64,000 nt of DNA from Patescibacteria group bacterium. Its GTDB lineage: Bacteria > Patescibacteriota > Patescibacteriia > Patescibacteriales > JAQTRU01. The stretch spans positions 3,686 to 67,685 of the forward strand of contig JAQUPG010000006.1 of the NCBI GenBank assembly GCA_028716725.1. The letters run 5' to 3'. Each line of letters starts with the position of its first letter. The stretch's first letter is position 1. Shown here one piece after another: positions 2,833 to 62,164 of the stretch. A program made the position numbers and the translations under genes. Under the pieces are notes generated by a model. That model was not told the origin of the DNA. It did not search any database and was given only the letters and a program-made list of their open reading frames with translations.

Positions 2833-3843
2833 TTAGGCTCCCTTTAATAAATCAAATAAAGCCTTGGCTGCTCCCCAACTCAAGCCCGTCAAACCCCCGA
2901 CAACATCTAAAACATCTTTGGCTTTTTCTATTAAGTTCCCTCTCCTAAAATCAACAATCATAACAATTAGAGCTAACTCCGTGGCAATAATAGCTAAAAC
3001 AATCAAATCTAAAATTAACAACCCTATCACCTCAACGATTCCAAAAGCGGTGCCGCCTATATTTTTAGCGCTGCTCTCGCCGGCCACAATTTTCGGCATC
3101 CATTCTTCCCCCAACTTGCAAAAGAGATCGGGAAATACCCATCTTAAAAAAACGTGCATATTTATATAAATCAAGGTCAGACCAAAACTGTCAATTAAAT
3201 TCCCCCAAGCGGCTTTCAGCAACCGATTCGTTCCTTGCTTAACCGGGTCCATCACTTTCTTCTCTATTTCTTCCTTGGCCCTTCTCTTTAAATTCGCCTG
3301 CATTTTTAACCTATTAATCCTCTTCCCCCAACTCTCTTCGCCTTCTTGATCTTCTTCACCTTCCGGACTTTTTTTCGCTTCCCCTTCCTTTTCTCCGTCT
3401 TTTTCTTTATTCTTTTCTTCTTTATTTTCCTCTTCCTGCCCGGCCATTAACCGGCTATCTAAATCACCGGCCGCGCCCATTGGCTTGCCCCCGGCAGCTT
3501 TAGCGGAAGGGGGCTGTCCGCCGGCAAAAGCCGTTGGTCCGGCGCCAGACCCTCCTCTCCCCGACTGGCCAGGCCCGGAATTATCTCCACCGGCCTGGCT
3601 GCGGCGGCTAGCCGGGAGCGGCCTTTCCGGCCTAACTGGCCGGCCCAGATTATCTCTGCTCGACCCGTCTGCCGTTTTTCTGTCTCTCCCCATGCCGCCC
3701 ACTCCGCTGGCTAAACTCATTAAATCATCAAGTGAATTGTTTCCCCCATTTCTTCTCTCTTGTCGTAATTTACTAGCCGCTGAAGCTTCATCTTCTTGAT
3801 TATCCAATTTTCTTTTATCATCAATTGTGGCTGGCTCAGGCAT
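2833..3843 (-). CDS. membrane protein with long disordered G/P/S/E/K-rich N-terminal region and two C-terminal TM helices
   Basis: 336-aa ORF whose stop lies 4 nt before the VirB6-like start. Low-complexity N-terminal 180 aa. Hydrophobic segments LIDSFGLTLIYINMHVFL and FGIVEVIGLLILDLIVLAIIATELALIVMIV. Confidence 0.7.
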   Translation of the reverse strand: MPEPATIDDKRKLDNQEDEASAASKLRQERRNGGNNSLDDLMSLASGVGGMGRDRKTADGSSRDNLGRPVRPERPLPASRRSQAGGDNSGPGQSGRGGSGAGPTAFAGGQPPSAKAAGGKPMGAAGDLDSRLMAGQEEENKEEKNKEKDGEKEGEAKKSPEGEEDQEGEESWGKRINRLKMQANLKRRAKEEIEKKVMDPVKQGTNRLLKAAWGNLIDSFGLTLIYINMHVFLRWVFPDLFCKLGEEWMPKIVAGESSAKNIGGTAFGIVEVIGLLILDLIVLAIIATELALIVMIVDFRRGNLIEKAKDVLDVVGGLTGLSWGAAKALFDLLKGA

Positions 3844-3890
3844 AAAACTTAACTAAAGCTAGAATTATAAAATAAGATAGTTCGTTGCAT

Positions 3891-3912
3891 GTTATGCGTT
3901 ACGTGTTATGCG
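3891..3912. repeat. GTTATGC heptamer words in spacer
   Basis: gttatgc gttacgt gttatgc directly downstream of the giant gene stop. The same heptamer is arrayed at 31475-31509. Confidence 0.8.
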
Positions 3913-3917
3913 GCTAG

Positions 3918-6900
3918 TTACTTTTCCTTTACTTTTATCGTGCCGGAGAATGGCTCACTGTCGGTATAGCCCCAATTGTCTTTTATGGCCACTGTTGGCT
4001 GGATTAAACAATAGCCCGTATCTCCTTCGGCGCCGCAAGTTATGCTTGTGCCGGTTTTGCCTGCTTTATTCCTTAAATCCCAATAACTGTATAAATGATA
4101 AACCGAGTGCGGAGTTTTTTCGTCCGGCCGGTGGTTCATCTCCACTCCGGAAACAACCGTAGTCCCCCCATCGCCCCAATTAACTTCATATCTTACTAAT
4201 GGCAATTGATTAACATCAACTGCCGTATTAAAGGTTAAATTGGCAAAACCATTTTTAATAATCGTAGTTTCACCTGTCTCCACATTATTAACTTTTACGT
4301 GACCTATATTCGGATTTGAACCGTCAATCGGCGTCCAATTAGCAAACCCGCTGTCAGGAATATACCGGCCCGCGCCTTCGCAAGTGCCAATCTGGCACTC
4401 GCCCACGGAATCAGCCGTAGTACAATCCGTATTAGTGCTGCAAATTTTTGTTTTTGAGGGATCATTGCTGCATTGACTGCAGGGCTTAATTTCCGCTTCT
4501 AATCTTGAACATGGCTGCCCGCCATTCTGCCCGCCGACACAGGCATATAATCCGTCACCCGTGTTTTCTATACATTGAGGATCGCCGGTATCAAGCCCAC
4601 AGCATCTTTTCCCGTTATTTATTTTATAAACCTTCACACAAAAATCATCGGTTACAACACACCCATCTTTAATGCCATTCGTATCAGGAGCGCATTCGAT
4701 TCCCGGATTTTCACCCCCGATACATTTTTCCGAAAGACAAGTCCCCGGGCCAACATCCTTACATTTCCCAGAAAATGGCGTGCAATGGCCGGGATTCATT
4801 GGGCAATCAGCGCTTACAGTGCAATCTTGGCCGATCCTACTTCCCCCATCGCAATACCGCAGGCATGTGCCGCTGCCTGCCGAACAAGGACTATTATCAT
4901 AACAGCTTATGCTATTATCATTGGAACATACGCCTTGGGGACAGGAGAAATCGCCTTCACAACTGGAAGCGTTATGAATATCACAAGAATTGCCATCTAA
5001 ATCACCATTTACGCATCTATAGGTTTGGCATGGGGCATCCCGGTCATCGGCTTCCATATCACAAAAAACATTAATATTATCACATCTCCATATTGGACAA
5101 TCGCCATCAACAGAACAATTTTGTTCGTGTTTATTTGAATCACTACTGCATACCTTTTTACATATTCCACCGTAGCAACAATTAGTGCCAGAACCAGCGG
5201 TTGTTTTTACGGTTGAATTGCATTTGTATTCTCCGGTGAAATTGCAATCATCCGGAGTGCCAGTGCCTTCTATGTCGCAAGTGGCGCCACTATTTGAGCA
5301 TTTACCCCCTATGCAGAAACTAAGAGGAGCGCAACAAAGCGACCCGCTAGCTGTTCCGCCGCACGTATACGCATCTGCTTCTTCATTATATCGGCAGTTT
5401 TCCGCAGGGCAAACGGGATTTCCATCTAACGGCGGAAAGCATTCTTGACCCTCGTTTCCCGATTGGTCATCACAAGAATAAAATTTATCTCCGGTCTGGG
5501 CGCAATAACCGCCGCCGGTACAAGTCTGCTTCACGGTGCAGGCTTGCTCGTTTAAACTGCAGACTCCGTCGCTTAACCTATAACGACCATAACTTTGGGC
5601 AAAAAGTTTCTTCAATTCACCTTCATAATAAATATTCGGCGGGTTAGTATCTGCATCAATATATAACTGCCCCATCCTGGACGAATTTTTATCCTGACTA
5701 TAATAAAGCGGCTGGATGCCCTCGTCGTTTTTAGTGTCCCATTCATAGGGATTGGCGGCCGGTTCGGGGTAAACGATTGTACCAAACGGCGAAGCATCGC
5801 TGCTGTAATCCGCTTTATCAAAATAACCGGAAATGCCCTGATTAATATTAACGGTAAAACCGCTCTTTCCACCAGACAAAAGCGACTGGTAAACCTTGTT
5901 TTCCCCGGCCGCGGAAACCGTCTGGATGAACTCTTGACAAACCGGCGCGATATTGATAATTGCCCGGCAAACAATCGTTTTGTCCTTAACATCTGCGTCG
6001 CCCGCCCAAATTTTCTGAACCCCAGGATTGCGCGTGGAATCATCAACATAAGTCGGCTTTCCCCACTTCAAATTGTCTTGATAGCCATAATCGAGCTCAT
6101 TGATACCCTTACCGGTCTCGACCGACGGAATCTCCTGAGGACCGAAATAATACCCTTTATTTAGTGTGGTATTAGGAATTTCGGCGCAACTCCAGCCGTA
6201 TTTGTCATCAATTGAAGTAGGCATCGGTTCCATATAAGCGGAATTAGCGGCCTCGATTAAAGCTTCTACATAACCATCCCCCGCCGGCCTATTGTAAGCT
6301 TTTAAAACAACAACATGCTTGCCAGGCGCAAACTTTTTCGTTGTTACCCCCCGCCTATAATCTCTACTCGTCCCGCCGTGAACCAAATCGCCATTATCAC
6401 CATTTTCTTTAACGCCGTCAATATAAAGCCAGAATTGATCATCGGCTATCGCTTTATATTTTAACTCTATTCCATCGGTTAAGCCGGTGCAATAATACAA
6501 GGGAAATTTTCCTTTATAGCCGGCACCTTCTTCAATGCCTTCACCTTTGACTTTATCAACCGGATACCAAAGCAGACAGGAATCGGTTGAGCCAGGACGC
6601 CGGTCGTATTCCAAACAATAGCCGGTTAAGCCCTTTTGGGTTACTCCGGAATTATCCACATAGCTGCAGGACAATGAGTCTTCCTTCGGATAAAGCCGGC
6701 AAGATTGCGAGGAATAAGTATTTTGTTTTATTTCCAGAGCCGGTTTTATTTTTATATCATCAAAATAAGCTAACCCGCCGAAAGCGGATGAAGTAACAAT
6801 TAATTTACCCGAAATTAAACCGGAAAGATTATCTAATTTTTTCTCAACATAACCGTCGTTCCCCGGCCCGACAATTAACGACCACCTATCATCGGATGTT

Positions 6901-13606: not shown

Positions 13607-14434
13607 TCAAATAAATTCTCCAAATAGTTTTACCCAGTCTTCCACTAACAGCTCTTGGGCCCTGATTTTGGGGTTAAAACCGGCTTCTTTTACCTTTTTT
13701 TCCGCTTCTGCCGAAGTTATATGAAAACCAGCCCCCAGATTATTTTTCAGCATTTTTCTCTTGGCGCTAAACCCGATTTTTACCATTCTAAAAAATTTCT
13801 CTTCATTTTGTACAGACGAACGGCCGTTCGTCTCAACAGCTAATTTTATTATAGCACTATCCACTTCCGGCTGGGGCCAAAAACAATTAGCCGGAACAAT
13901 ATCTATAATCTCCGGCCGGCTATAAAACTGGACGGAAACGGCCAATAGGCTCATTTTAGGGGGGCGGGCAACAATTCTTTCCGCCACTTCCTTTTGCAGC
14001 ATCAAAACCATCATCTCCGGCTTATTTTCCGCCGATAAAAACTTCCTTAGGAAGATAGAAGTTATATTGTACGGCAAGTTTGCCACCACTTTATAAATCC
14101 GAAATCCGAAATCCGAAATCCGAAATTTTAAAATATCACCATTTACCACTTCCACATTTTTTATCCCCTGCGACATTAAACCGGTTTGCAAAACTTCCGC
14201 TAATTTATCATCCAGTTCCACGGCCACAACTTTCTTCACGATTTTTGCCAGCCTCGTAGTTAAAAATCCCAAACCCGAACCAATTTCTAAAACGATATCA
14301 TCCGCCTTAAGATCAGCGGCCTTTACAATTTTTTCATAAACTTCTTCCTTGATTAAAAAATTCTGCCCGCGCGACCGGGCAGGCTTTATTTCGTACAATT
14401 GGCAAAGCTGTTTTGTCGTTTTTAACCAATCCAT
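13607..14434 (-). CDS. rsmA: 16S rRNA (adenine1518/1519-N6)-dimethyltransferase
   Basis: GQNFLI, SAM-binding VLEIGSGLGFLT, and ANLPYNITS motifs; 275 aa. Confidence 0.9.
   Translation of the reverse strand: MDWLKTTKQLCQLYEIKPARSRGQNFLIKEEVYEKIVKAADLKADDIVLEIGSGLGFLTTRLAKIVKKVVAVELDDKLAEVLQTGLMSQGIKNVEVVNGDILKFRISDFGFRIYKVVANLPYNITSIFLRKFLSAENKPEMMVLMLQKEVAERIVARPPKMSLLAVSVQFYSRPEIIDIVPANCFWPQPEVDSAIIKLAVETNGRSSVQNEEKFFRMVKIGFSAKRKMLKNNLGAGFHITSAEAEKKVKEAGFNPKIRAQELLVEDWVKLFGEFI
14098..14125. repeat. TCCGAAA x4 heptamer array inside rsmA
   Basis: Perfect tandem heptamers on the + strand, encoding ..FRISDFGFRIY.. on the minus strand. Confidence 0.9.
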
Positions 14435-25612: not shown

Positions 25613-26788
25613 ATGAAACAAATACTCGAAGGTTCCAGGGCCATCGCCCTGACAATAAAAAATATCAACCCGGCAGTCATTTCTGCTTACCCGATTACTC
25701 CCCAAACTCATATTGTCGAAGATCTGGCTAAATTTAAAGCTAACGGGGAGGCCGATTACGAATATGTTCGGGCGGAAAGCGAATTTGCCGCGGCTTCGAT
25801 TATAGAGGGCGCCAGCGCTACCGGCGTGCGGGTTTATTCGGCCACTTCTTCCCAGGGCCTGCTTTTAATGGCTGAGGTTATATTTAATATTGCCGGCATG
25901 CGCCTGCCAATAGTTATAACCTGCGCCAATCGGGCGGTGTCCGCGCCCATTAATATCTGGAACGACCAACAGGACGCTATGACCGTCAGGGACGCCGGCT
26001 GGATTATGTTTTTTGCCGAAAACCACCAGGAAGCGGTTGACCAGCATATTATCGCTTATAAAGTGGCGGAGAAATTAAATCTGCCGGTAATGGTTAATAT
26101 TGACGGCTTTGTTTTAACCCATACTTACGAGCCGGTGATTATACCCGAAGCTAAACAGATAAAAAAATATTTGCCGGACTATAAGCCTAAAGCCGGCCAG
26201 TTTTTAAATCCGGCTAACCCTGTTACCATGGGCGCTTTTGCCACTCCGGCCCATTACATGGAAATCCGCCAGGACCTGCACGATGACCTGACTTCCGGCT
26301 TAAAAGTAATTAATGAAGAATATAAAAAATATTATGAAATTTTCCGAAATCCGACATCCGAAATCCGACATCCGAAATCCGAAAATGGTCTAGTCGAATA
26401 CTACGGTCCGAAGAATCCAAAGACAATTTTAGTGGCTATGGGTTCGGTCATCGGCACTATGAAAGAAGTTGTTGACGAACATAATTCTTCTTTCCCGGGA
26501 GATAAAGTCGGCATATTAAAAGTAAAAACTTACCGGCCTTTCCCGGCCGAAGAGGTTATAAAAATTATAAAGCCGGCCAAATATGTCGCGGTTATTGATA
26601 AATCCATTTCCCTGGGCCAGATTGGCCCCTTAGCCAGCGACCTAAAAGCGGCTTGCCAAGGGAAAATTAAGGGTAAAATTCAGAGTTTCGTTGTTGGTTT
26701 GGGCGGACGGGACGTTACGAAGGAAATGATTAAAAAAATAATTAATGAAGTTAAAAAGAATGATGATGAAATAAAATTTATTGGTTAG
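25613..26788 (+). CDS. porA: PFOR alpha subunit
   Basis: MKQILEGSRAIAL..AYPITPQT..SEFAA motifs. The track start at 25532 adds 27 aa encoded by spacer repeat DNA, so the ATG at 25613 is preferred. Confidence 0.85.
   Translation: MKQILEGSRAIALTIKNINPAVISAYPITPQTHIVEDLAKFKANGEADYEYVRAESEFAAASIIEGASATGVRVYSATSSQGLLLMAEVIFNIAGMRLPIVITCANRAVSAPINIWNDQQDAMTVRDAGWIMFFAENHQEAVDQHIIAYKVAEKLNLPVMVNIDGFVLTHTYEPVIIPEAKQIKKYLPDYKPKAGQFLNPANPVTMGAFATPAHYMEIRQDLHDDLTSGLKVINEEYKKYYEIFRNPTSEIRHPKSENGLVEYYGPKNPKTILVAMGSVIGTMKEVVDEHNSSFPGDKVGILKVKTYRPFPAEEVIKIIKPAKYVAVIDKSISLGQIGPLASDLKAACQGKIKGKIQSFVVGLGGRDVTKEMIKKIINEVKKNDDEIKFIG
26343..26384. repeat. TCCGA(A/C)A x6 heptamer array inside porA
   Basis: 42 nt, in frame, encoding RNPTSEIRHPKSEN. 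Same heptamer and same + strand orientation as the array in rsmA. Confidence 0.9.
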
Positions 26789-26794
26789 TAGCCA

Positions 26795-26825
26795 CCCCCT
26801 TGATAAAGGGGGCCAGGGGGATTTT
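26795..26825 (+). repeat. C/G hairpin plus G-rich tail element (family A)
   Basis: ccccctt-gata-aaggggg followed by ccagggggatttt. Other copies at 47779, 56034, 62022, 43138 and 34633. Confidence 0.85.
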
Positions 26826-26850
26826 AAAAGTTAAACCTCCCCTACCCCTC

Positions 26851-26898: not shown

Positions 26899-27924
26899 AT
26901 GAAACTTTCTAATTTAGTTAAAACTTCTAACGGGGTGAAAAAGCTTCCCAAAATTTTAACAATAACTTTTCTCTCCATTTTAATTTTCCAAATGGTTTGT
27001 TTGATTATTTTACTGACGATCCCTAAAAAAACCCAGGCGGCTGACATAAGATTCAACCCGCAGGTTGAAATTCCTGGCTTGGAAGAAGAAGTTCAAAAGG
27101 ATGGGGGGGGATACTATGTCGGCACAGAAACAGAAGTAATGAAAGATGGTAAAAAAGTGAAAACATTCAGCAGCGACCTCTTGGGGAAATACATCCAGGC
27201 AATTTACAATTACGCCATCGGCATTGTCGGAATTTTAGCCGCCGTGGTTTTGATGTTCGGGGGAGTAATCTGGCTTACGGCCGGCGGCAGCCCGGAAAAA
27301 GTTAATGAGGCTAAGGCCTGGATTGGCGCATCTCTTTCCGGCCTAGTTTTGGTTTTATGCTCTTATATGATTTTAAATACCATTAATCCGGATTTAGTCA
27401 GCTTTAAGCCGATAGAAGTGCAAACTATTGAAAAAATGCCTGTAATGGGTTGCTGCGAATATAAGGAATGTGATGATAATATTACGGAACCGGACTGCAG
27501 AAAAAAGGAGGGATATATTGCCTGGCGGGAAGGAAGTATTTATACTTGCAATGCTGAAAATAAATGCGAAAAATCATGTTTTTGGATAACCCTTAGAAAT
27601 GATGAATATTGCAGAAGTATCGGGTATGAAATGGAGGGAACCAGCGAAATGTGCGGGATAGGGCAATTTGGAGCAGCTGCTTACTCTACGGGGGGAGAAT
27701 TCAAATCCGTTTGCTGTTGCAGCCATGGGAAAGTGGCTAATCCTTGCGAAGGCAAAAAAAATGGGGACGAATGCACTACAAGCGGAGGAGATAAAGGATA
27801 TTGTATGCATAATGCGTGCCATACTTGCAAGCCGGCAGGCACTACTTGCACTCAGTGGTTATATGGAAATAAAGAATGCTGTAACGGAGATTGCCAAGGA
27901 TTAAAAGACCCTAAATGTAATTAA
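26899..27924 (+). CDS. VirB2/TrbC-like pilin-domain protein with 22-Cys C-terminal domain
   Basis: Signal anchor ILTITFLSILIFQMVCLIILLTIPKKTQA. Two-helix hairpin IYNYAIGIVGILAAVVLMFGGVIWLTAGGSPEKVNEAKAWIGASLSGLVLVLCSYMIL. C-terminal 160 aa contain 22 Cys. The track start at 26800 (TTG) lies in repeat DNA, so the ATG at 26899 is preferred. Confidence 0.7.
   Translation: MKLSNLVKTSNGVKKLPKILTITFLSILIFQMVCLIILLTIPKKTQAADIRFNPQVEIPGLEEEVQKDGGGYYVGTETEVMKDGKKVKTFSSDLLGKYIQAIYNYAIGIVGILAAVVLMFGGVIWLTAGGSPEKVNEAKAWIGASLSGLVLVLCSYMILNTINPDLVSFKPIEVQTIEKMPVMGCCEYKECDDNITEPDCRKKEGYIAWREGSIYTCNAENKCEKSCFWITLRNDEYCRSIGYEMEGTSEMCGIGQFGAAAYSTGGEFKSVCCCSHGKVANPCEGKKNGDECTTSGGDKGYCMHNACHTCKPAGTTCTQWLYGNKECCNGDCQGLKDPKCN
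27202..27400 (+). repeat. conserved pilin-hairpin coding block, copy 1
   Basis: Direct repeat of 28170-28368. By eye about nine of ten bases are identical, with most differences at third codon positions. Confidence 0.85.
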
Positions 27925-27935
27925 TAATTTAACAA

Positions 27936-28994
27936 ATGCCGAAAAAATTCCCAAAAATTTTTACTGTTATTTTTCTGCTTTTAATAATCCTGCAAACAGG
28001 CGCTTTTGTTTTTCCCATTTTATTTTATACCCCGGCAAAAGCGGCGGCCAAATGGGCTAACCCGGTAGACCAAATAAAAATACCCGGGCTAAAATTTTCC
28101 GAGCCAAAAGCCTGCCCGGATGACCCGTTAAAAACCTGCGTCCCCTGGATAGGAGAATATATCGGCGGCATTTACAATTACGCCATCGGCATTGTCGGGA
28201 TTTTGGCGGCCGTGGTTTTGATGTTCGGGGGAGTAATCTGGCTCACGGCCGGAGGCAGCCCGGATAAGGTTAATGAAGCCAAGGCCTGGATCGGCGCGTC
28301 TTTATCCGGCTTGGTTCTAGCTTTATGCTCTTACATGATTTTATACCAAATTAATCCTGACTTGGTTAAACTTAATCCTTTGAAAGTAAATGTCGTTACT
28401 GAAAAAAAGATAGAAGGTGCGGCTGCCCAAAAATGCCAATGGGGAGTTGGTTCATGGAATGAATTTTATGCAGATACTTGCAAAGATATGGCAAAAAAAG
28501 GAAATTGGGAAAATCCCAATACCTGGGAAGTAAAAACAGAAGAAAATTGCGAAGGGACTAAACCACAGGGAAACTATGTTCTCTGTTGCTGCCCTCCCTG
28601 TCCGGCAGAATGCCAAGCAGTAGGCTGTAATTACTGCGCGGCCTGCGAAAATTGTACAACTCTTACAATTCCCACAAAAAATGGTACACAACTAACTGCA
28701 CCTTTGGCCCAAAAACTAGCAAATGCTTTTAGCCAGAAAAATAACTGGCGAGTAACCGAAGCTTGGCCGCCAAGCCAGGGCCATGCCGATTCCTGCCATT
28801 ACAATGGCATGTGCGCTGACATTAATTTTTCTAACGGCTCTAAAGATCCAACCGAGGTAAAAGAATTATTCGACATATTAACCGCCGCCGGATTAAATGC
28901 AACATATGAATCCGATGATTGTAGCGCCTATACGGGAGTAACATGCGACAAAGGCTCGGCCTATACCAACGCCCAACATTTTCACGTAAAATAA
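27936..28994 (+). CDS. VirB2/TrbC-like pilin-domain protein with Cys-rich linker and LAS-type zinc peptidase-like C-terminal domain
   Basis: Carries the same hairpin as the upstream gene. The C-terminus has SCHYNGMCAD (H-x6-D) and a terminal HFH (H-x-H), which together form the LAS/peptidase M15-type zinc signature. 16 Cys after the hairpin. Confidence 0.7.
   Translation: MPKKFPKIFTVIFLLLIILQTGAFVFPILFYTPAKAAAKWANPVDQIKIPGLKFSEPKACPDDPLKTCVPWIGEYIGGIYNYAIGIVGILAAVVLMFGGVIWLTAGGSPDKVNEAKAWIGASLSGLVLALCSYMILYQINPDLVKLNPLKVNVVTEKKIEGAAAQKCQWGVGSWNEFYADTCKDMAKKGNWENPNTWEVKTEENCEGTKPQGNYVLCCCPPCPAECQAVGCNYCAACENCTTLTIPTKNGTQLTAPLAQKLANAFSQKNNWRVTEAWPPSQGHADSCHYNGMCADINFSNGSKDPTEVKELFDILTAAGLNATYESDDCSAYTGVTCDKGSAYTNAQHFHVK
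28170..28368 (+). repeat. conserved pilin-hairpin coding block, copy 2
   Basis: See 27202-27400. Confidence 0.85.
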
Positions 28995-33376: not shown

Positions 33377-35206
33377 TTATCGTTTTAAAATTTTCACGAA
33401 TGCTTCCGGCGGAATTTCCACGCTCCCCTTGCCGGCGGCCATCATTTTCTTTTTGCCCTTTTTCTGCTTTTCCAGTAATTTTCTTTTCCGGCTGACGTCC
33501 CCGCCGTAAAGCTTGGCCGTCACGTCCTTGCGCATGGCGGAAAGCCTTTCCGCGGCAATGACTTTCCCGCCAATGGCGGCCTGCATTTTTAAGACAAACA
33601 TCTGCTTCGGCAAAGTTTCCTTTAAAGTTTCCACGATTTTTTTGCCTTCCCGAAAAGCTTCATCGCGATAAACGATCATGGACAGAGCTTCAACTATGTC
33701 TTCGGCCACTAGAATATCCATCTTCACCACATCGGCCGGGCGGTAATCCAGATAATCATAATTAATGGAAGCGTAGCCGGAGCTGATACTTTTTATCTTA
33801 TCATAAAAGTCGGTTAAAATCGCCGCCATGGGTATTTCATAATGGAGAATAACCGTGTCTTTTTCCAAATATTCCGTATTTTTATAAGCGCCCCTCTTGT
33901 CCTGCGCTAATTCCATGACCGCGCCTATATAATCTTTTGGGGTAACAATGTCCAAAGATACCCACGGCTCTTCCACCTGCTTTATTTCCGCCTGGTCCGG
34001 CAATTTTTGCGGAGTGCGGATAATTATTTCCTCGCCGTTTGTCTTATGGACTTTATAAGCCACGCTCGGCAAGGTTACGATTAAAGCCAGGTTATATTCC
34101 CGCCGCAGCCTTTCCTGAAAAATTTCTAAATGCAGAAGCCCGAGAAAACCGCACCGAAAACCAAAACCCAAAGCTTCGGAACTTTCCGGCTCATACGTCA
34201 GGGCGGCATCATTTAATTTTAATTTTTCCATGGCTTCCCGCAAGTCCTGAAAATCGCTGCCTTCCCTAGGGAAAACCCCGGCAAAAACCATGGGCTTCAC
34301 CTCTTTATAGCCATGCAAGGGCTCTAAACCGGACTCAACGGATTTAAGATTGGAAACCGTGTCGCCCACCCGGCACTCGCTGACATTTTTAAAACCGGTA
34401 ACAATATAACCAATTTCCCCGGCTTCCAGTTTCCCCGTGGATTTATACTCGGGCTTAAATATGCCGATATCCAGGGCCTCACTTCTGGCTTTTGTGGCCA
34501 TTAAATAAATTTTATCCCCCTTTTTTATTTCCCCGTCCATAACCCTGACATGCGCCACCACTCCCCGATATTCATCATAATTGGAATCAAAAATTAAAGC
34601 CCGCAGAATTTCAATACCTCTCCCCTTTTGTTCCCCTCCTCTAATTAGGGGAGGGGTTAGGGGTGAGGTCCCGGGTGCTGGCACGTGTTTAACCACCGCT
34701 TCTAAAATCTCCTCTACCCCCTGACCAGTTTTGCCAGAAGCTAAAATTATTTCTTTTTCATTACAGCCAATTAATTTTATAATTTCCCCTTTGGTTTTTC
34801 CGATATCGGCCGCGGGCAAATCTATTTTATTAACCACCGGAATGATTGCCAAATCCTGTTCCATGGCCAAAAAAAGATTAGCCAGAGTCTGGGCCTGAAT
34901 TCCTTGGGTCGCGTCCACTAATAAAACCGCTCCTTCCACCGCGGCTAACGAGCGGGAAACTTCATAGGAAAAATCAACATGGCCAGGAGTGTCTATCAAA
35001 TTCAAAACATAGCCATTATATTCCATAGTCACGGGCTGGAGCTTGATTGTTATTCCCCTTTCCCTTTCTATATCCATTCTGTCCAGAAACTGTTCTTTCA
35101 TTTTTCTTTTTTCAATCGTCCCGGTAATTTCCAGCATCCGATCCGCCAAAGTTGACTTGCCGTGGTCAATATGCGCGATAATGCAGAAATTTCTAATATT
35201 GGTCAT
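33377..35206 (-). CDS. lepA: elongation factor 4 (LepA)
   Basis: IIAHIDHGKSTL, DTPGHVDF and NKID G-motifs, plus the LepA C-terminal region; 609 aa. Confidence 0.95.
   Translation of the reverse strand: MTNIRNFCIIAHIDHGKSTLADRMLEITGTIEKRKMKEQFLDRMDIERERGITIKLQPVTMEYNGYVLNLIDTPGHVDFSYEVSRSLAAVEGAVLLVDATQGIQAQTLANLFLAMEQDLAIIPVVNKIDLPAADIGKTKGEIIKLIGCNEKEIILASGKTGQGVEEILEAVVKHVPAPGTSPLTPPLIRGGEQKGRGIEILRALIFDSNYDEYRGVVAHVRVMDGEIKKGDKIYLMATKARSEALDIGIFKPEYKSTGKLEAGEIGYIVTGFKNVSECRVGDTVSNLKSVESGLEPLHGYKEVKPMVFAGVFPREGSDFQDLREAMEKLKLNDAALTYEPESSEALGFGFRCGFLGLLHLEIFQERLRREYNLALIVTLPSVAYKVHKTNGEEIIIRTPQKLPDQAEIKQVEEPWVSLDIVTPKDYIGAVMELAQDKRGAYKNTEYLEKDTVILHYEIPMAAILTDFYDKIKSISSGYASINYDYLDYRPADVVKMDILVAEDIVEALSMIVYRDEAFREGKKIVETLKETLPKQMFVLKMQAAIGGKVIAAERLSAMRKDVTAKLYGGDVSRKRKLLEKQKKGKKKMMAAGKGSVEIPPEAFVKILKR
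34633..34669 (+). repeat. family A hairpin plus G-rich tail inside lepA
   Basis: cccctcctct-aatt-aggggagggg (10-bp stem with one G-T pair) plus ttaggggtgaggt. On the minus strand it encodes TSPLTPPLIRGGEQKGRG. Confidence 0.85.
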
Positions 35207-35408: not shown

Positions 35409-36209
35409 TTACTTCAGGCCCAAAACATCCTGCATGTCGTAAAGTCCCGGATTCTGCTCCGGAGCCCACTCGGCCGCCCGAACGAAACCTTGAGCAAAAG
35501 CGTCGCGGGAAGAAACCCGATGAACCAGCTCAATCCGCTCTCCCGGACCGAAAAAGGTAACTGTGTGTTCACCCACCACATCGCTCGCGCGAAGAGAGTG
35601 GATGCCGATCTGGTCTTTCGGCCGAGGATAACCCATTCCATGCCGGCCATAGCAGGCGACATCTATCAGTTTCTGGCCTCGGACCCCGGCGACAATTTCC
35701 GCCAATCTATCGGCTGTGCCGCTGGGAGCATCCTTTTTCTGATCATGATGGATCTCAATGATTTCAACATCATATCCATCCCCCAGAATTGCCGTCATTT
35801 TGGCCACTAAGGCAAACATCGCGTTTGCCCCGACACTAAAATTCGGCGCCAAAACGATGGGAATCCACTCGGCAGCCAAATCGAGATAATGTCTGGCTTC
35901 ATCATCCAGACCAGTCGAGCCAATCACCATCGGCTTTATACAACTTACAGCCAATTTCGCATTAGCCATAAATGCTTCCTGACCGCTTACGTCAATGACA
36001 ACGTCAGACGAAGCAATAACCGAGGGCAGGTCATCAGAGTCCGAAGGAGTAAAAGAAATCTTCGTCCCTGGAATCGGAAAACCTGAAATCTTCGCTGGTT
36101 TTTCAATTGCCCCGACCAACTCGATTCCGTCTGTTTCATTGATCGCCGGGATAATTCGGCTACCCATTCTGCCAGCCCCGCCAATCACGGTTACTTTTAC
36201 AGTTTTCAC
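35409..36209 (-). CDS. dapB: 4-hydroxy-tetrahydrodipicolinate reductase
   Basis: N-terminal VIGGAGRMG Rossmann motif, EIHHDQKKDAPSGTA signature and APNFSVGAN. GTG start preceded by AAGGGAG. Visibly higher GC than its neighbours. Confidence 0.85.
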   Translation of the reverse strand: MKTVKVTVIGGAGRMGSRIIPAINETDGIELVGAIEKPAKISGFPIPGTKISFTPSDSDDLPSVIASSDVVIDVSGQEAFMANAKLAVSCIKPMVIGSTGLDDEARHYLDLAAEWIPIVLAPNFSVGANAMFALVAKMTAILGDGYDVEIIEIHHDQKKDAPSGTADRLAEIVAGVRGQKLIDVACYGRHGMGYPRPKDQIGIHSLRASDVVGEHTVTFFGPGERIELVHRVSSRDAFAQGFVRAAEWAPEQNPGLYDMQDVLGLK

Positions 36210-36315: not shown

Positions 36316-36359
36316 TTAAAAAAGGAGCTCAGCTCCGAAGCTTCGGAGCTGAGCTCCTT
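36316..36359 (-). terminator. 38-nt perfect palindrome terminator
   Basis: aaggagctcagctccgaag/cttcggagctgagctcctt (36322-36359), followed on the minus strand by TTTTTAAA. Confidence 0.7.
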
Positions 36360-36374
36360 ATCTCTATATAAAAT

Positions 36375-37136
36375 CTATTCCACTTGCAGCGGCCCCACTT
36401 TTTCCATTTCAAATTTTTTCTGTTCATTAATATTATTGGTTGTATAATCTAAAAGAATAAATTCTTTTTTTAATATTTTATTTTCTCTGTCAAACTCCGC
36501 TGCGATAAATTTGTTTTTATATTCTTCCAAGATAACTAATTCTGGGTCTGATTTATATACTAAAAAATATTCACGTTTTGCATCTTTATACCCCTTCTCA
36601 CAAATAGGAAAAAGAAGAAAAATTATTAAAAAAATAAGAAGTGGTTTTAATTCTAGTAAAGTAAATACCTCTTCCATTTTTGGTAAATTGCATATATTCA
36701 TAATATTAAGAACCACGAAGGGACTTGCTAGCAACGCTATTATACCTATTGCTGACATATTAACATTGTTAGTAACAAAAAAATCAAAAATTTTCCCCGA
36801 TAAGATTATATATGAAATAATTATTAAAAAAACAGATGAAATATAGCTGGATATTTTTTTAGGATATTTTTTAACAATTATAAACGCCGCCGAGATAAAA
36901 AGCCCCATTAATACGACGATAAAAAAAACAAATACAACATAAAAAGTAGAATATAAAATCCTGTTTATATCAACCTCTATAAACATTAAAGGAATAGAAA
37001 GGGTACGAAAATATATAAATTTATACAAATAACTTACAAAGAATCCCGCAAAAGTTAGTAATGCAACAATAAAAGTTGCTTCACCTAAAAAGGTAATCCC
37101 TAATTTTGATTTATTTTTCATTTCTCCCTCTGACAT
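36375..37136 (-). CDS. hypothetical polytopic membrane protein, extremely AT-rich gene
   Basis: 253 aa with about 6 hydrophobic helices rich in I/F/L/K/N. Far more AT-rich than the surrounding genes. Confidence 0.65.
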   Translation of the reverse strand: MSEGEMKNKSKLGITFLGEATFIVALLTFAGFFVSYLYKFIYFRTLSIPLMFIEVDINRILYSTFYVVFVFFIVVLMGLFISAAFIIVKKYPKKISSYISSVFLIIISYIILSGKIFDFFVTNNVNMSAIGIIALLASPFVVLNIMNICNLPKMEEVFTLLELKPLLIFLIIFLLFPICEKGYKDAKREYFLVYKSDPELVILEEYKNKFIAAEFDRENKILKKEFILLDYTTNNINEQKKFEMEKVGPLQVE

Positions 37137-37203: not shown

Positions 37204-38856
37204 CTAGATTCCCCTGGCTTCTCCCTGGTCTTCGGTCGTCACTTTCTTTAAAGGCTGGCGGCAAAGCTTGCATTTAATCGGCGTCCAGACAGCCATAAAT
37301 TCTTCGCTTCGGAGAAGCGAGCAAACGGCCGCGTAAATGAACATGCCGGCTAATCCGGCGACCAACCCCTGGGTTAAAACTCCCCAGAATTTAGTCATAT
37401 CAATAAACGGCCAAATCAATAATTTCATGCCCTGGACCGTAATCCCGCAAGCCACCCCGGCTGCCGAGAACTTTATCACGGACACCAAAATTTTTATCTC
37501 GTCCATCTGGCCAAGAGAAAAACGCAGGGCCAGCCAAAGGAGAATAAAATTAAGAATGGAGGAAAGGGAAAAAGCTAAAGCCAAACCGGCTACGCCCATT
37601 CGGCTGGAAAGCCATAAAGATAAGACGACATTAATAAGGGCGGAAAATAAACCAATGAAAAACGGGGTTTTAGAATCATGCCGGGCGTAAAATACCCGGA
37701 CTAAAAGCGGCAGAGAGGCCTGGGCAAAAAGGGATAGGCAGAAAAAAGCTAAGGTATTCATGGTTAAAATCGTATCCTCCCAGTCAAACCGCCCGGTCCC
37801 AAAAATAACGCGGATAACCTGAGCGCGCAAAGTTATAAGTAAAACCGTAGACGGAACGATAAAAAATAAAATTTGGCGCAGGGTTGAGGAAAAACCGGCA
37901 ACCAAATCTTTTTTGGAAAAAGCCGCGGCGGAAAGAGCGGGAAAAGCGGCAATGGCAAAAGAGATGCCGAAAATGCCGATCGGAAAAGACTGCAAATTAT
38001 TGGCTAAATTAAAAACCGCCAAAGAGCCGACCGCCAAAGTTGAAGCAATAATTGTAATCACGACTAAATTTATCTGGGAAATGGCCAAACTCATCGTCCG
38101 CGGCACCATCATGGCGCCTATTTTTTTTAAATCGGAATCTTTAAAATCAATTTTTAACCTGTGCCGGAAACCCAGGGCAATCGTGGTTGGAAGCTGGATA
38201 AGCATATGGAGAGAAGCTCCTAAAACCACGCCCCAGGCCAGGCCGTAAATCCCCCAAGCCGGAACAAAATACAAAGCGCCGATGATAATCCCGACATTAT
38301 ACATTATCGGCGCCAGAGAATAGACAAAAAATCTTTTAAATGACTGCAGAATCCCGCCTAAAACCGCCGAGATGCCCAAGAACAAAGGGGAAAGAAACAT
38401 TATTCTGGTTAAGGCCACGGTTAAGGCCTGCTTTTCCGGAGAAAATCCGGGAGTGATTAGTTCGGTCAGGCCCGGAGAAAAAATAATTCCTAAACCGCAA
38501 AGAACCAAAAGCCCCAAAACTAAAATGTTTAAAATATTGCTCGCCAGCGTCCAGGCCTTTTTATTTTCTTCGCCAGCAAAAAAACCGGTAATCTTATCCA
38601 GCGGATTTTTAAGGAGGCCGACAAAAATAGGAATAAAGCCTGCCGATAAAGCCCCCAGGACCAATAAATTAAAAATTGAATCCGGAATCCGGAAAGCGGC
38701 GTAATAAACGTCTAAAGTGTCACCGGCTCCGAATTCGCCGGCTAAAATCCTGTCGCGGAAAACGCCTAAAAAACGGCTGACCAATGAGGAGGCCCCCACC
38801 AGTCCCGCCGCTACGGTTATATTATTGATTTGCCCGTTAAACAAGCGTTTGATCAT
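37204..38856 (-). CDS. murJ: lipid II flippase MurJ
   Basis: SLVSRFLGVFRDRILAGEFGAGDTLDVYYAAFRIPD N-terminal signature and about 14 TM helices; 550 aa. Confidence 0.85.
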   Translation of the reverse strand: MIKRLFNGQINNITVAAGLVGASSLVSRFLGVFRDRILAGEFGAGDTLDVYYAAFRIPDSIFNLLVLGALSAGFIPIFVGLLKNPLDKITGFFAGEENKKAWTLASNILNILVLGLLVLCGLGIIFSPGLTELITPGFSPEKQALTVALTRIMFLSPLFLGISAVLGGILQSFKRFFVYSLAPIMYNVGIIIGALYFVPAWGIYGLAWGVVLGASLHMLIQLPTTIALGFRHRLKIDFKDSDLKKIGAMMVPRTMSLAISQINLVVITIIASTLAVGSLAVFNLANNLQSFPIGIFGISFAIAAFPALSAAAFSKKDLVAGFSSTLRQILFFIVPSTVLLITLRAQVIRVIFGTGRFDWEDTILTMNTLAFFCLSLFAQASLPLLVRVFYARHDSKTPFFIGLFSALINVVLSLWLSSRMGVAGLALAFSLSSILNFILLWLALRFSLGQMDEIKILVSVIKFSAAGVACGITVQGMKLLIWPFIDMTKFWGVLTQGLVAGLAGMFIYAAVCSLLRSEEFMAVWTPIKCKLCRQPLKKVTTEDQGEARGI

Positions 38857-43128: not shown

Positions 43129-43137
43129 AAACTTCTA

Positions 43138-43170
43138 CCCCGCCCTTCGCGAAGGGCGGGGTGAGGTATT
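43138..43170 (+). repeat. family A-like hairpin plus tail
   Basis: ccccgccctt-cgcg-aagggcgggg plus tgaggtatt. Confidence 0.8.
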
Positions 43171-47778: not shown

Positions 47779-47809
47779 CCCCCTTTCGAAAAGGGGGTTG
47801 GGGGGATTT
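47779..47809 (+). repeat. family A hairpin plus G-rich tail
   Basis: cccccttt-cga-aaaggggg plus ttggggggattt. Confidence 0.85.
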
Positions 47810-55765: not shown

Positions 55766-56033
55766 TTTATAAATGGCAAAGGAGAAAAACGGAATAGAGA
55801 ATAAAACAAAAAAACGGCTAAACAAGCGCAAACAGAGACGCAAATATTTCCGTTTTTATAACGTTTTGTATATGACTAGTATTAGTTTATTACTTGTTCT
55901 TATACTAACAGCTAAGAAAAAATATGTCAAGCGGATAAGCAAAATAATTAAAATAAATCAAATCCCTTAATTTTTTCTTTATTTTTAGCTAAAATCTAAT
56001 TTTTCCTAAAAAGTTATCCACAGGACATCGTCT

Positions 56034-56084
56034 CCCCCTTGATAAAGGGGGTTGGGGGGATTTAAAGGGGGACGAGGGGGATTT
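56034..56084 (+). repeat. family A hairpin with duplicated G-rich tail
   Basis: ccccctt-gata-aaggggg, ttggggggattt, then aaagggggacgagggggattt. The hairpin is identical to the copy at 26795. Confidence 0.85.
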
Positions 56085-60900: not shown

Positions 60901-60940
60901 TGTCATTGCGAGCCCCGAAGATTCGGGGCTCGCAATGACA
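60901..60940. repeat. family B perfect palindrome
   Basis: tgtcattgcgagccccgaa-ga-ttcggggctcgcaatgaca. A partial copy gtcattgtgaggagg lies at 60874-60888. Confidence 0.9.
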
Positions 60941-62021: not shown

Positions 62022-62164
62022 CCCCCTTTCGTTAAAGGGGGTTAGGGGGATTTTTCTCCCCCTTGCTAAGGGGGAGGTAGGAGGGGGTAGGATGATTAGA
62101 GAAAAGAACAAAAAGAAGAACTCAACTCACCTCACCCCAACCCTCTCCTTAGCAAGGAGAGGGG
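62022..62164. repeat. cluster of three family A hairpin elements
   Basis: (1) cccccttt-cgtt-aaaggggg plus ttagggggattttt. (2) ctccccctt-gct-aagggggag plus gtaggagggggtagg. (3) In the opposite orientation, cctcaccccaa plus ccctctcctt-agc-aaggagaggg. Confidence 0.85.

What the first reader, a model, noticed from the sequence alone, without database searches (positions are those of the whole stretch)
34633..34669. Family A hairpin element translated in frame inside lepA
The element that elsewhere sits in spacers (C-rich arm, 4-nt loop, G-rich arm, then TTAGGGGTGAGG tail) lies inside EF4. There it encodes TSPLTPPLIRGGEQKGRG between ..VPAP and LRALIFDS. From memory, E. coli LepA has only about 7 residues at this junction between the G domain and domain II. 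This would be an insertion of roughly 15 aa made of repeat DNA in a universally conserved translation factor.
Basis: partly seen in the sequence, partly recalled or inferred. Interest (0 to 1): 0.6.

Follow-up and report, generated by a model that had tools for sequence, protein, structure and literature searches.

The report
Triplex-type DNA repeat translated inside lepA
A 54-base GC-rich palindromic repeat of a known, normally intergenic class (BoxC/PIT "intrastrand triplex" motifs) sits in frame inside the conserved translation factor EF4 of a Patescibacteria genome, adding a floppy 15-residue loop, and related genomes have put similar repeats at the same spot.

Summary
Window 34633-34669 (+) is a 10-bp C-rich/G-rich hairpin with an AATT loop, followed by TTA and a second G-rich block. 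It lies inside lepA (33377-35206, minus strand) and is translated.

The full element is 54 nt (34616-34669), which is 18 codons (TSPLTPPLIRGGEQKGRG). The net gain is 15 residues over E. coli, Thermus and Aquifex EF4 and over the closest relatives (93% identical outside the linker), which all have a 7-residue linker. AlphaFold models the insert as low-confidence coil between the G domain and domain II.

The element fits the definition of a class II purine-motif intrastrand triplex repeat (BoxC / PIT / TM; Holder et al. 2015). In E. coli these repeats were reported as always intergenic. The window holds five more such motifs, all intergenic, and shuffled sequence gave none.

In other Patescibacteria lepA genes the same linker carries near-identical copies of this window's intergenic elements. 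It also carries at least two other hairpin families.

The best reading is a tolerated passenger insertion into a permissive surface linker, comparable to Rickettsia palindromic elements. I rate it a new variant of a known kind, of moderate interest.

The parts
33377..35206 (-). lepA (EF4), 609 aa, intact ORF that hosts the element
   Evidence: ORF listed. Pfam finds GTP_EFTU 3-176, EF-G_D2 from 202, EFG_C and LepA_C. E = 2.8e-208 to Aquifex LepA 2ywe. Exact match to an NCBI Patescibacteria EF4, P0001.
34616..34669 (.). Full 54-nt quasi-palindromic element, equal to codons 180-197 (TSPLTPPLIRGGEQKGRG). It has four 10-nt blocks C2-C1-loop-G1-G2.
   Evidence: Sequence. RNA fold is -31.4 kcal/mol on the coding strand (z -2.8) and -36.0 on the + strand (z -3.3), with nested outer and inner stems.
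34633..34669 (+). Class II purine-motif intrastrand triplex motif on the template strand of lepA: CCCCTCCTCT-aatt-AGGGGAGGGG-tta-GGGGTGAGGT
   Evidence: ITxF-like scan gives stem 10, 1 Watson-Crick mismatch (G.T) and 1 triad mismatch. 20 shuffles gave 0 motifs.
34607..34672 (-). Codons 179-200 (GTSPLTPPLIRGGEQKGRGIEI), the expanded G-domain/domain II linker
   Evidence: BLAST to the sister gene L001 breaks at window 34607-34667. See the DNA alignment. AF2 gives pLDDT <50 and coil for residues 181-197, between helix 164-174 and strand 202-211.
62129..62164 (-). Intergenic family member closest to the lepA copy. It shares the head ACCTCACCCC-AACCC.
   Evidence: It is 88-94% identical to the lepA inserts of L178 and L204.
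62055..62089 (+). Intergenic triplex motif. Its core CTCCCCCTTGCTAAGGGGGAG is the same as the core of the lepA insert in L136/L206.
62022..62052 (+). Intergenic triplex motif with no mismatches
56033..56061 (+). Intergenic triplex motif
47779..47807 (+). Intergenic triplex motif between convergent gene ends
26795..26827 (+). Intergenic hairpin plus G-run copy. It is a looser member that fails my strict triad scan.
   Evidence: The gene calls of L002 put the neighbouring gene starts and ends at window 26788 and 26899.

Best explanation
**What happened.** A copy of a short GC-rich palindromic repeat landed in the codons for the linker between the G domain and domain II of EF4. The repeat belongs to the BoxC / PIT / "TM" class. 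This class has a C-rich arm, a loop, a G-rich arm, a short loop and a second G-rich block. The last three parts let the single strand fold into a hairpin or a purine-motif intrastrand triplex.

**Why the gene survives.**
- The element is 54 nt (18 codons) and about 3 native codons were lost, so the frame is kept.
- The frame that is read has no stop.
- The linker is an unstructured surface connector.

The gene therefore stays intact and the repeat is translated into a Pro-rich then Gly-rich disordered loop.

**What it does.** The insert is a tolerated passenger, not a functional module of EF4. At the DNA level the site behaves as such repeats do elsewhere, as a locally unstable and recombination-prone spot. 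This is why the same linker in related Patescibacteria shows many different repeat-derived inserts, nested indels and mosaic alleles.

**Shown:**
- presence of the element, its frame and its family architecture;
- absence from close relatives;
- disordered inter-domain position;
- recurrence at the same site in other lineages.

**Inferred:**
- passenger status;
- the way the element got in. No transposase is known for this class. Template switching or recombination is assumed.
- triplex formation in the cell.
For: - **Family fit.** The lepA copy meets the triplex-motif rules: stem 10, loops of 4 and 3 nt, 1 Watson-Crick and 1 triad mismatch. Five further motifs in the window are all intergenic, and shuffles gave 0.
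- **The motif class is widespread.** The published TM_ECO pattern is CCCTCNCCC-N3-6-GGGNGAGGG-N3-GGGNGAGGG (PMC4666352). A scan with the element's head plus C-arm hit 122 sites in many phyla. Of these, 118 are class II triplex motifs and 95 are perfect, mostly CCCTCTCCC/GGGAGAGGG/GGGTGAGGG.
- **Derived state.** L123 and L001/P0002 are 93% identical outside the linker and have 7-aa linkers. BLAST breaks exactly at 34607-34667.
- **Permissive site.** Pfam domains end at 176 and restart at 202. AF2 models residues 181-197 as coil with pLDDT <50. Among 199 Patescibacteria LepAs the modal linker is 7 aa, and 55 have 13 aa or more.
- **Recurrence at the same linker.** Triplex-type inserts occur in L136/L206, L178, L204/L205, L207, L208 and L125.
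- **Element better conserved than flanks.** The inserts match this window's intergenic copies at 88-94%, while the flanking lepA DNA is only 72-75% identical. This argues for separate acquisitions from a conserved repeat pool.
- **Not an assembly accident.** The gene is identical in a second MAG assembly, L002 (GCA_028713775.1).
- **No competing annotation.** There is no Rfam family and no terminator or promoter at the element.
Against: - No near-identical second copy of the lepA variant exists in the 64-kb window.
- No target-site duplication or clean empty site can be read, because the closest empty allele is only 85% identical in DNA.
- Five inserts that share the ACC TCA/TCG head (window, L178, L204/L205, L207, L208) sit on the same strand and are read in the same frame (T-S-P/L...). 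L136/L206 share the strand but have a different head (H-P-L...). By my own frame count 5 of the 6 frames are open. This hints at shared descent, spread by recombination, or selection on the peptide, rather than fully independent passive insertions.
- Passenger status is an inference. No expression, proteomic or fitness data exist.
Confidence: 0.78

Rival explanations
1. One ancient insertion in an ancestral Patescibacteria lepA was inherited vertically and lost many times by slippage. Alternatively it spread between alleles by homologous recombination. On this view there were not many separate insertions.
For: - Five inserts that share the ACC TCA/TCG head are on the same strand and in the same frame.
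- Mosaic alleles exist. L206 equals L204 except for a patch of about 180 nt that carries the insert and is identical to L136. L178 and L203 are 98-100% identical on both sides of a patch that is only 61-79% identical.
- The literature links these motifs with deletions (PMC4666352).
Against: - The insert start differs by 0-4 codons after PAP, and the element variants differ between lineages.
- Upstream lepA flanks of insert-bearing alleles are only 72-75% identical, while the elements are 88-94% identical to intergenic copies in this window.
- Closest relatives at 93-97% identity lack the insert.
- Other hairpin families occupy the same site.
Confidence: 0.15
2. The hairpin arose in place by expansion or slippage of the native Pro-x-Pro...Gly-Asp/Glu linker codons (CCN..CCN...GGN GAN). 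No repeat was imported.
For: - The native linker already reads PxP..G(D/E), a weak proto-palindrome.
- Some hairpin-bearing linkers are barely longer than baseline. L124 is only +2 aa.
Against: - The lepA element shares a 15-nt head and the full four-block plan with intergenic copies.
- Inserts in L178, L204, L207 and L136 are near-identical to this window's spacer copies.
Confidence: 0.04
3. The insert is functional. It could be an adaptive flexible loop that changes how EF4 meets the ribosome. It could instead be an mRNA hairpin that pauses translation between the two domains.
For: - The mRNA hairpin is stable: -31.4 kcal/mol, z -2.8.
- It sits exactly at a domain boundary.
- The same site is used repeatedly, in the same frame.
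Against: - The distribution is patchy, and insert-free sisters exist at 93-97% identity.
- Insert sequences, lengths and families are heterogeneous.
- The loop is modelled as disordered.
- PIT elements showed no promoter or terminator activity in E. coli (PMC4666352).
Confidence: 0.05
4. The insert is an assembly artefact: a repeat collapsed or joined wrongly into lepA in a metagenome-assembled genome.
For: - The source is a MAG.
- Repeats shared between genomes can cause chimeric joins. L136 diverges from L206 right after the element.
Against: - The locus is identical in a second assembly over 15.2 kb.
- The insert is in frame and free of stops.
- Analogous inserts appear in independent NCBI, JGI, ENA and Logan assemblies.
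Confidence: 0.03

Closest known systems
BoxC / PIT (potential intrastrand triplex) elements, also called TM_ECO motifs (Bachellier 1990s; Hoyne/Maher 2000; Holder et al. 2015, NAR, PMC4666352)
   Same: [quoted passage not shown]
- Multi-copy and GC-rich in an AT-richer genome.
- Often paired as palindromes.
- Associated with local variability.
- The window copy at 62129-62164 and the lepA inserts of L207 and L208 are almost the TM_ECO consensus.
   Different: - In E. coli the motif is reported as always intergenic. Here it is translated inside an essential-type gene.
- The lepA copy has arms CCCCTCCTCT/AGGGGAGGGG, so it misses the strict CCCTCNCCC/GGGNGAGGG pattern.
- The host is Patescibacteria, which the cited paper does not discuss.
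Rickettsia palindromic elements (RPEs; Ogata et al. 2000, as summarised in PMC10969869)
   Same: Palindromic repeats inserted in frame into unrelated protein-coding genes. They are translated, and they sit at positions compatible with the protein fold.
   Different: - RPEs are about 100-150 bp, AT-richer and specific to Rickettsia. This element is 54 bp, GC-rich and of the triplex class.
- Here one site in one gene is hit repeatedly across lineages. RPEs hit many genes within one genome.
MITEs / REP-type intergenic palindromes
   Same: Short, non-autonomous, multi-copy, hairpin-forming and mostly intergenic.
   Different: No terminal inverted repeats distinct from the body, no target-site duplication seen, and no associated transposase or RAYT known for this class.

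Membership tests
Intrastrand triplex motif, class II G/C-rich (ITxF definition; BoxC/PIT/TM) | Three consecutive blocks (pyrimidine stem, purine stem, third purine-rich strand), stems of 6-15 nt, loops of 1-6 nt | tested here: met
   CCCCTCCTCT-aatt-AGGGGAGGGG-tta-GGGGTGAGGT, with stem 10 and loops of 4 and 3 nt. The definition is from PMC4666352.
Intrastrand triplex motif, class II G/C-rich (ITxF definition; BoxC/PIT/TM) | Watson-Crick pairing of blocks 1 and 2, and reverse-Hoogsteen-compatible triads (G*G:C, A*A:T, T*A:T) between blocks 3 and 2, with at most one mismatch | tested here: met
   The lepA copy has one Watson-Crick mismatch (G.T) plus one triad mismatch. That meets my scan rule of at most one mismatch of each kind.
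Intrastrand triplex motif, class II G/C-rich (ITxF definition; BoxC/PIT/TM) | Strict TM_ECO pattern CCCTCNCCC-N3-6-GGGNGAGGG-N3-GGGNGAGGG | tested here: not met
   The arms of the lepA copy are CCCCTCCTCT/AGGGGAGGGG. Copy 62129-62164 and the lepA inserts of L207 and L208 come within 1-2 bases of it.
Intrastrand triplex motif, class II G/C-rich (ITxF definition; BoxC/PIT/TM) | Multi-copy in the genome, above chance | tested here: met
   6 motifs in 64 kb against 0 in 20 shuffles. The whole genome was not scanned.
Intrastrand triplex motif, class II G/C-rich (ITxF definition; BoxC/PIT/TM) | Intergenic location (in E. coli MG1655: always) | tested here: not met
   The copy lies inside lepA codons 180-197. 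The other five window copies are intergenic.
Intrastrand triplex motif, class II G/C-rich (ITxF definition; BoxC/PIT/TM) | The single strand actually folds into a triplex (CD/NMR) | not testable with these tools
   Only hairpin energies could be computed.
In-frame palindromic repeat insertions of the RPE kind | A repeat that also exists in non-coding copies is inserted in frame, without a stop, in a conserved gene | tested here: met
In-frame palindromic repeat insertions of the RPE kind | The insertion falls in a surface or linker region compatible with the fold | tested here: met
   It lies between Pfam domains, 176 and 202. AF2 gives coil with pLDDT <50 for residues 181-197.
In-frame palindromic repeat insertions of the RPE kind | Size (about 100-150 bp) and sequence of an RPE family | tested here: not met
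   The element is 54 nt and GC-rich. The RPE size is from PMC10969869. No sequence comparison with RPEs was run.
MITE | Target-site duplication flanking the element | tested here: inconclusive
   The filled versus empty alignment is only 85% identical and shows no clear duplication. The L178/L203 pair shows a replaced patch, not a clean insertion.
EF4 / LepA | GTP_EFTU, domain II, EFG_C and LepA_C architecture, full length | tested here: met
Canonical G-quadruplex motif (G3+ N1-7, four tracts) | Four G-tracts with loops of at most 7 nt | tested here: not met
   GGGG-A-GGGG-TTA-GGGG is followed by a 9-nt gap before the next GGG (sequence). This is read by eye, not by a tool.

The most novel reading that the evidence does not exclude
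The EF4 linker between the G domain and domain II may be a preferred landing and recombination site for GC-rich triplex and hairpin repeats in Patescibacteria.

- Five lineages carry ACC TCA/TCG-headed elements on the same strand and in the same reading frame, within 0-4 codons of each other. L136/L206 carry another triplex-type variant on the same strand.
- Alleles are mosaic around the insert.

This would imply one of two things. Either there is a targeted insertion mechanism, for example microhomology with the native CCN-CCN...GGN-GAN linker. Or there is selection for the Pro/Gly loop.

It would also provide filled and empty site pairs for working out how BoxC/PIT elements move. That question has been open since the 1990s.
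Probability: 0.25. Interest if true: 0.75.

Novelty: new variant of a known kind. Interest (0 to 1): 0.55.

Why it matters
- **Reach of the repeat class.** BoxC/PIT/TM repeats were described as strictly intergenic in E. coli, and their function and way of spreading are unknown. This finding shows they can be written into a universally conserved translation GTPase and be translated.
- **A second system like RPEs.** It extends the "selfish DNA inside proteins" phenomenon, known mainly from Rickettsia, to the Candidate Phyla Radiation.
- **A natural experiment.** It identifies one protein loop that repeatedly absorbs such DNA. That loop can be used to study how these elements insert, how they destabilise DNA, and how much junk a core protein can carry.
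- **A practical warning.** Pro/Gly-rich inserts in CPR proteins can be repeat DNA rather than lineage-specific functional loops.

Tried and rejected
1. **Genome-wide pattern scan.** I scanned genome contigs with CCTCACCCCN{0,1}AACCCYYYCCYT to find other copies in the source genome. It did reveal the cross-phylum motif class.
2. **Peptide search for other in-frame copies.** A 60-aa concatenation of three insert peptides found no candidate.
3. **Rfam.** Only sub-threshold noise appeared over the region.
4. **Terminator or promoter at the element.** None was found.
5. **G-quadruplex reading.** The lepA copy lacks a canonical four-tract motif, and the G-tract pattern is not consistent across copies. 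I rejected it in favour of the triplex-motif definition, which all copies meet.
6. **Literature on in-frame palindromic repeats in CPR/Patescibacteria.** Nothing relevant turned up in the library.
7. **Target-site duplication.** None can be read from the available filled and empty pairs.
8. **Intein, intron or frameshift site.** I did not pursue these. The insert is 54 nt, in frame, without stops, and has no catalytic motifs.
Full report
**1. The observation**

The sequence CCCCTCCTCT-AATT-AGGGGAGGGG-TTA-GGGGTGAGG lies at window 34633-34668 on the + strand. It is unique in the window, and no match was expected in 100 shuffles. It falls inside a 609-aa ORF on the minus strand, 33377-35206.

That ORF is a full-length EF4/LepA. 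Pfam finds GTP_EFTU (residues 3-176), EF-G_D2 (from 202), GTP_EFTU_D2, EFG_C and LepA_C. It matches Aquifex LepA 2ywe at E = 2.8e-208. It is identical to an NCBI protein named translation elongation factor 4 from a "Patescibacteria group bacterium" (P0001).

The element is translated on the minus strand as ..HVPAP-GTSPLTPPLIRGGEQKGRGIEI-LRALIFDS.. Solved EF4s have seven residues at this point: EGDPEGP in E. coli 3cb4/3deg, KGDPEAP in Thermus and KGDPQKP in Aquifex. HMMER opens a 15-residue gap in each of them.

**2. Anatomy**

Window 34616-34669 is a four-block imperfect palindrome:
- ACCTCTCCCC, then tttgtt;
- CCCCTCCTCT, then aatt;
- AGGGGAGGGG, then tta;
- GGGGTGAGGT.

This is 54 nt, exactly codons 180-197 (TSPLTPPLIRGGEQKGRG). 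As RNA it folds into nested outer and inner stems. The energy is -31.4 kcal/mol on the coding strand (z -2.8) and -36.0 on the + strand (z -3.3).

**3. Family**

The last three blocks fit a class II purine-motif intrastrand triplex. The C-arm pairs with G-arm 1, with one G.T. G-arm 2 runs antiparallel to G-arm 1 with G*G, T*A and A*A triads, with one mismatch.

I wrote a scan with rules modelled on the published ITxF finder: stems of 8 nt or more, G/C-rich, at most 1 Watson-Crick mismatch and at most 1 triad mismatch, with slightly wider loops (3-8 and 1-7 nt) than ITxF's 1-6. It found six such motifs in the window and none in 20 block shuffles. They are:
- the lepA copy;
- 47779-47807 (+);
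- 56033-56061 (+);
- 62022-52 (+);
- 62055-89 (+);
- 62129-62164 (-).

A looser copy lies at 26795-26827. All except the lepA copy are intergenic.

The copy at 62129-62164 shares the head ACCTCACCCC-AACCC with the lepA element. The exact 12-mer TTAGGGGTGAGG occurs only in lepA, so the family is real but loose at the sequence level.

**4. What is known about this class**

The hosts were Proteobacteria, Cyanobacteria, Chloroflexota, Planctomycetota, Bacteroidota, Patescibacteria and others. Of the 122 matches, 118 are class II triplex motifs and 95 are perfect. Most are CCCTCTCCC / GGGAGAGGG / GGGTGAGGG.

This is the BoxC / PIT / TM_ECO element of Holder et al. 2015 (PMC4666352). Its published pattern is CCCTCNCCC-N3-6-GGGNGAGGG-N3-GGGNGAGGG. 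The paper reports the following:
- The oligonucleotide forms a stable triplex in vitro.
- Triplex formation was not detected in duplex DNA or in vivo.
- There is no promoter or terminator activity.
- The motif is associated with local sequence variability.
- In E. coli MG1655 the location is "always" intergenic.

About 4,700 of 5,426 complete E. coli genomes carry the motif, with no annotated feature under the listed matches.

The lepA copy meets the general definition but not the strict TM_ECO pattern.

**5. Is the insert derived?**

Yes. Outside the linker, the closest LepAs are 93% identical, and they have 7-residue linkers: L123 (QARNDMP) and L001/P0002 (ETGGDTR). At the DNA level (85% identity) the sister gene lacks the element. 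BLAST alignments break at window 34607-34667. The arithmetic is 18 codons gained and about 3 native codons lost, a net +15.

A second MAG assembly, L002 (GCA_028713775.1), is 100% identical over 15.2 kb including the insert.

**6. Structural context**

An AlphaFold2 model built on 76 homologues has mean pLDDT 73.8. It places residues 181-197 in coil with pLDDT <50, between the last G-domain helix (164-174) and the first strand of domain II (202-211). This agrees with the Pfam boundaries. I could not measure the distance of this linker from the ribosome in EF4-70S structures.

**7. Recurrence at the same site**

Among 199 Patescibacteria LepAs the modal linker is 7 aa (65 sequences), and 55 have 13 aa or more. 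DNA from 80 metagenome loci and 8 targeted look-ups shows repeat-derived inserts.

Triplex-type elements occur in these lepA genes:
- L136/L206. The core CTCCCCCTTAGCAAGGGGGAG is the reverse complement of the core of window copy 62055-89 (CTCCCCCTTGCTAAGGGGGAG).
- L178.
- L204/L205.
- L207, which is perfect (CCCTCTCCTT-tta-AAGGAGAGGG-ttg-GGGTGAGGTA).
- L208, also perfect.
- L125, in the opposite orientation.

A second palindrome family, GTAGAGACG...CGTCTCTAC, encodes the peptide VETxxxASL. It occupies the same linker in L124, L129, L149 (two copies) and L177.

L210 carries a near-copy of this window's intergenic hairpin at 43137-43162.

Insert-bearing LepAs usually have an insert-free nearest relative. 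Examples are L178 versus P0102 at 97% and P0066 versus P0091 at 90%.

The elements match this window's spacer copies at 88-94%, while the adjoining lepA DNA is only 72-75% identical between the same genes. This favours separate acquisitions from a conserved repeat pool over a single old insertion.

Against full independence, the five ACC TCA/TCG-headed inserts use the same strand and the same frame (ACC TCA CCC = T-S-P; L178 reads ACC TCG CTC = T-S-L), 0-4 codons after PAP. L136/L206 use the same strand but start CAC CCC CTC = H-P-L. By my own count five of the six frames are open.

**8. Instability at the site**

- L205 differs from L204 by a 24-nt insertion nested inside the element.
- L206 is 99% identical to L204 over the whole locus except for a patch of about 180 nt (lepA nt ~400-580). 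The patch carries a different element and is identical to L136.
- L136 shares the upstream 3.4 kb with both and then diverges to about 75% right after the element.
- L178 and L203 are 98-100% identical on both sides of a patch at the insert that is only 61-79% identical.

These patterns fit recombination with endpoints at the element. Assembly switching at a shared repeat cannot be excluded, although several independent assemblies show each haplotype.

**9. Mechanism and verdict**

The best-supported reading is a passenger insertion. A BoxC/PIT/TM-type palindrome entered a permissive inter-domain linker. It kept the frame and is translated into a disordered Pro/Gly loop. Selection tolerates it because the linker is unconstrained.

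I found no sign of a regulatory RNA, a terminator or a promoter.

How such elements move is unknown. In E. coli they were not found associated with transposons, phages or plasmids.

The closest analogy for the outcome is the Rickettsia palindromic elements (PMC10969869). For the element itself it is BoxC/PIT/TM.

An in-frame copy also sits in a FemAB-family gene of a Moranbacteria genome, L016 (..VTSPQPSPYKGEGV..). So the phenomenon is not limited to lepA.

I found no report of it in CPR/Patescibacteria in the searchable library.

Noticed in passing
L003-L122 (genome-contig hits): The motif CCCTCACCCCAACCCTCTCCC-loop-GGGAGAGGG is nearly identical in many unrelated phyla, including Dehalococcoidia, Nostoc, Planctomycetota, Enterobacter, Pseudomonas, Acinetobacter, Methylobacterium, Bacteroidota and Patescibacteria. 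118 of 122 matches are triplex motifs and 95 are perfect. This spread is wider than the 262 proteobacterial genomes in which the 2015 paper counted this exact pattern.
   Followed up: partly
L124, L129, L149, L177 (lepA linker); also P0003-P0009, P0059, P0097, P0100: A second palindrome family, GTAGAGACGnnnnnnnnCGTCTCTAC, encodes the peptide VETxxxASL. It occupies the same lepA linker in other Patescibacteria. L149 carries two copies and folds at z -8.
   Followed up: partly
L210 lepA linker; window 43137-43164: The lepA linker of L210 contains ACCCCGCCCTTCGCGAAGAGCGGGG. This is almost the window's intergenic hairpin ACCCCGCCCTTCGCGAAGGGCGGGGT, which is itself followed by TGAGGT, the same GGGGTGAGGT ending as the lepA element.
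   Followed up: partly
L204, L205, L206, L136; L178 vs L203: The lepA alleles are mosaic. A patch of about 180 nt carrying the insert is swapped between otherwise 99%-identical loci. One contig diverges to about 75% identity right after the element. This is either recombination at the repeat or assembly switching.
   Followed up: partly
L205 (lepA nt ~560): A 24-nt insertion (CAGCCCGACACCGGTCTGGCGGGT) is nested inside the triplex element, relative to the otherwise near-identical L204. It adds 8 residues.
   Followed up: no
L016 3555-3575, ORF 3461-4591: A triplex-type element is translated in frame (TSPQPSPYKGEG) near the N-terminus of a FemAB-family protein in a Candidatus Moranbacteria genome.
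   Followed up: partly
window 60901-60940: A perfect 18-bp hairpin TGTCATTGCGAGCCCCGA-agat-TCGGGGCTCGCAATGACA fills the 37-nt spacer between two minus-strand genes. It belongs to a different repeat family.
   Followed up: no
window 36322-36359 and 35409-36209: A 16-bp perfect hairpin (AAGGAGCTCAGCTCCG-aagctt-...) lies in the spacer upstream of dapB (minus strand), towards the 36375-37136 ORF. dapB is present here and in L207 but absent from the syntenic sister locus L001, which has small ORFs instead.
   Followed up: no
window 38541-38577 (murJ): The second assembly, L002, lacks 29 nt here. The deletion lies between two 8-nt direct repeats (TCGCCAGC). It shifts the frame of murJ, which is called as 437 aa instead of 550 aa.
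   Followed up: partly
window 14095-14134 and 26347-26400: Short tandem heptamer arrays (AAATCCG / ACATCCG) occur at two distant places.
   Followed up: no
window 27188-27419 and 28156-28387: A 232-nt direct repeat at 82% identity lies inside two adjacent T4SS-pilin-family genes, which are paralogues.
   Followed up: no
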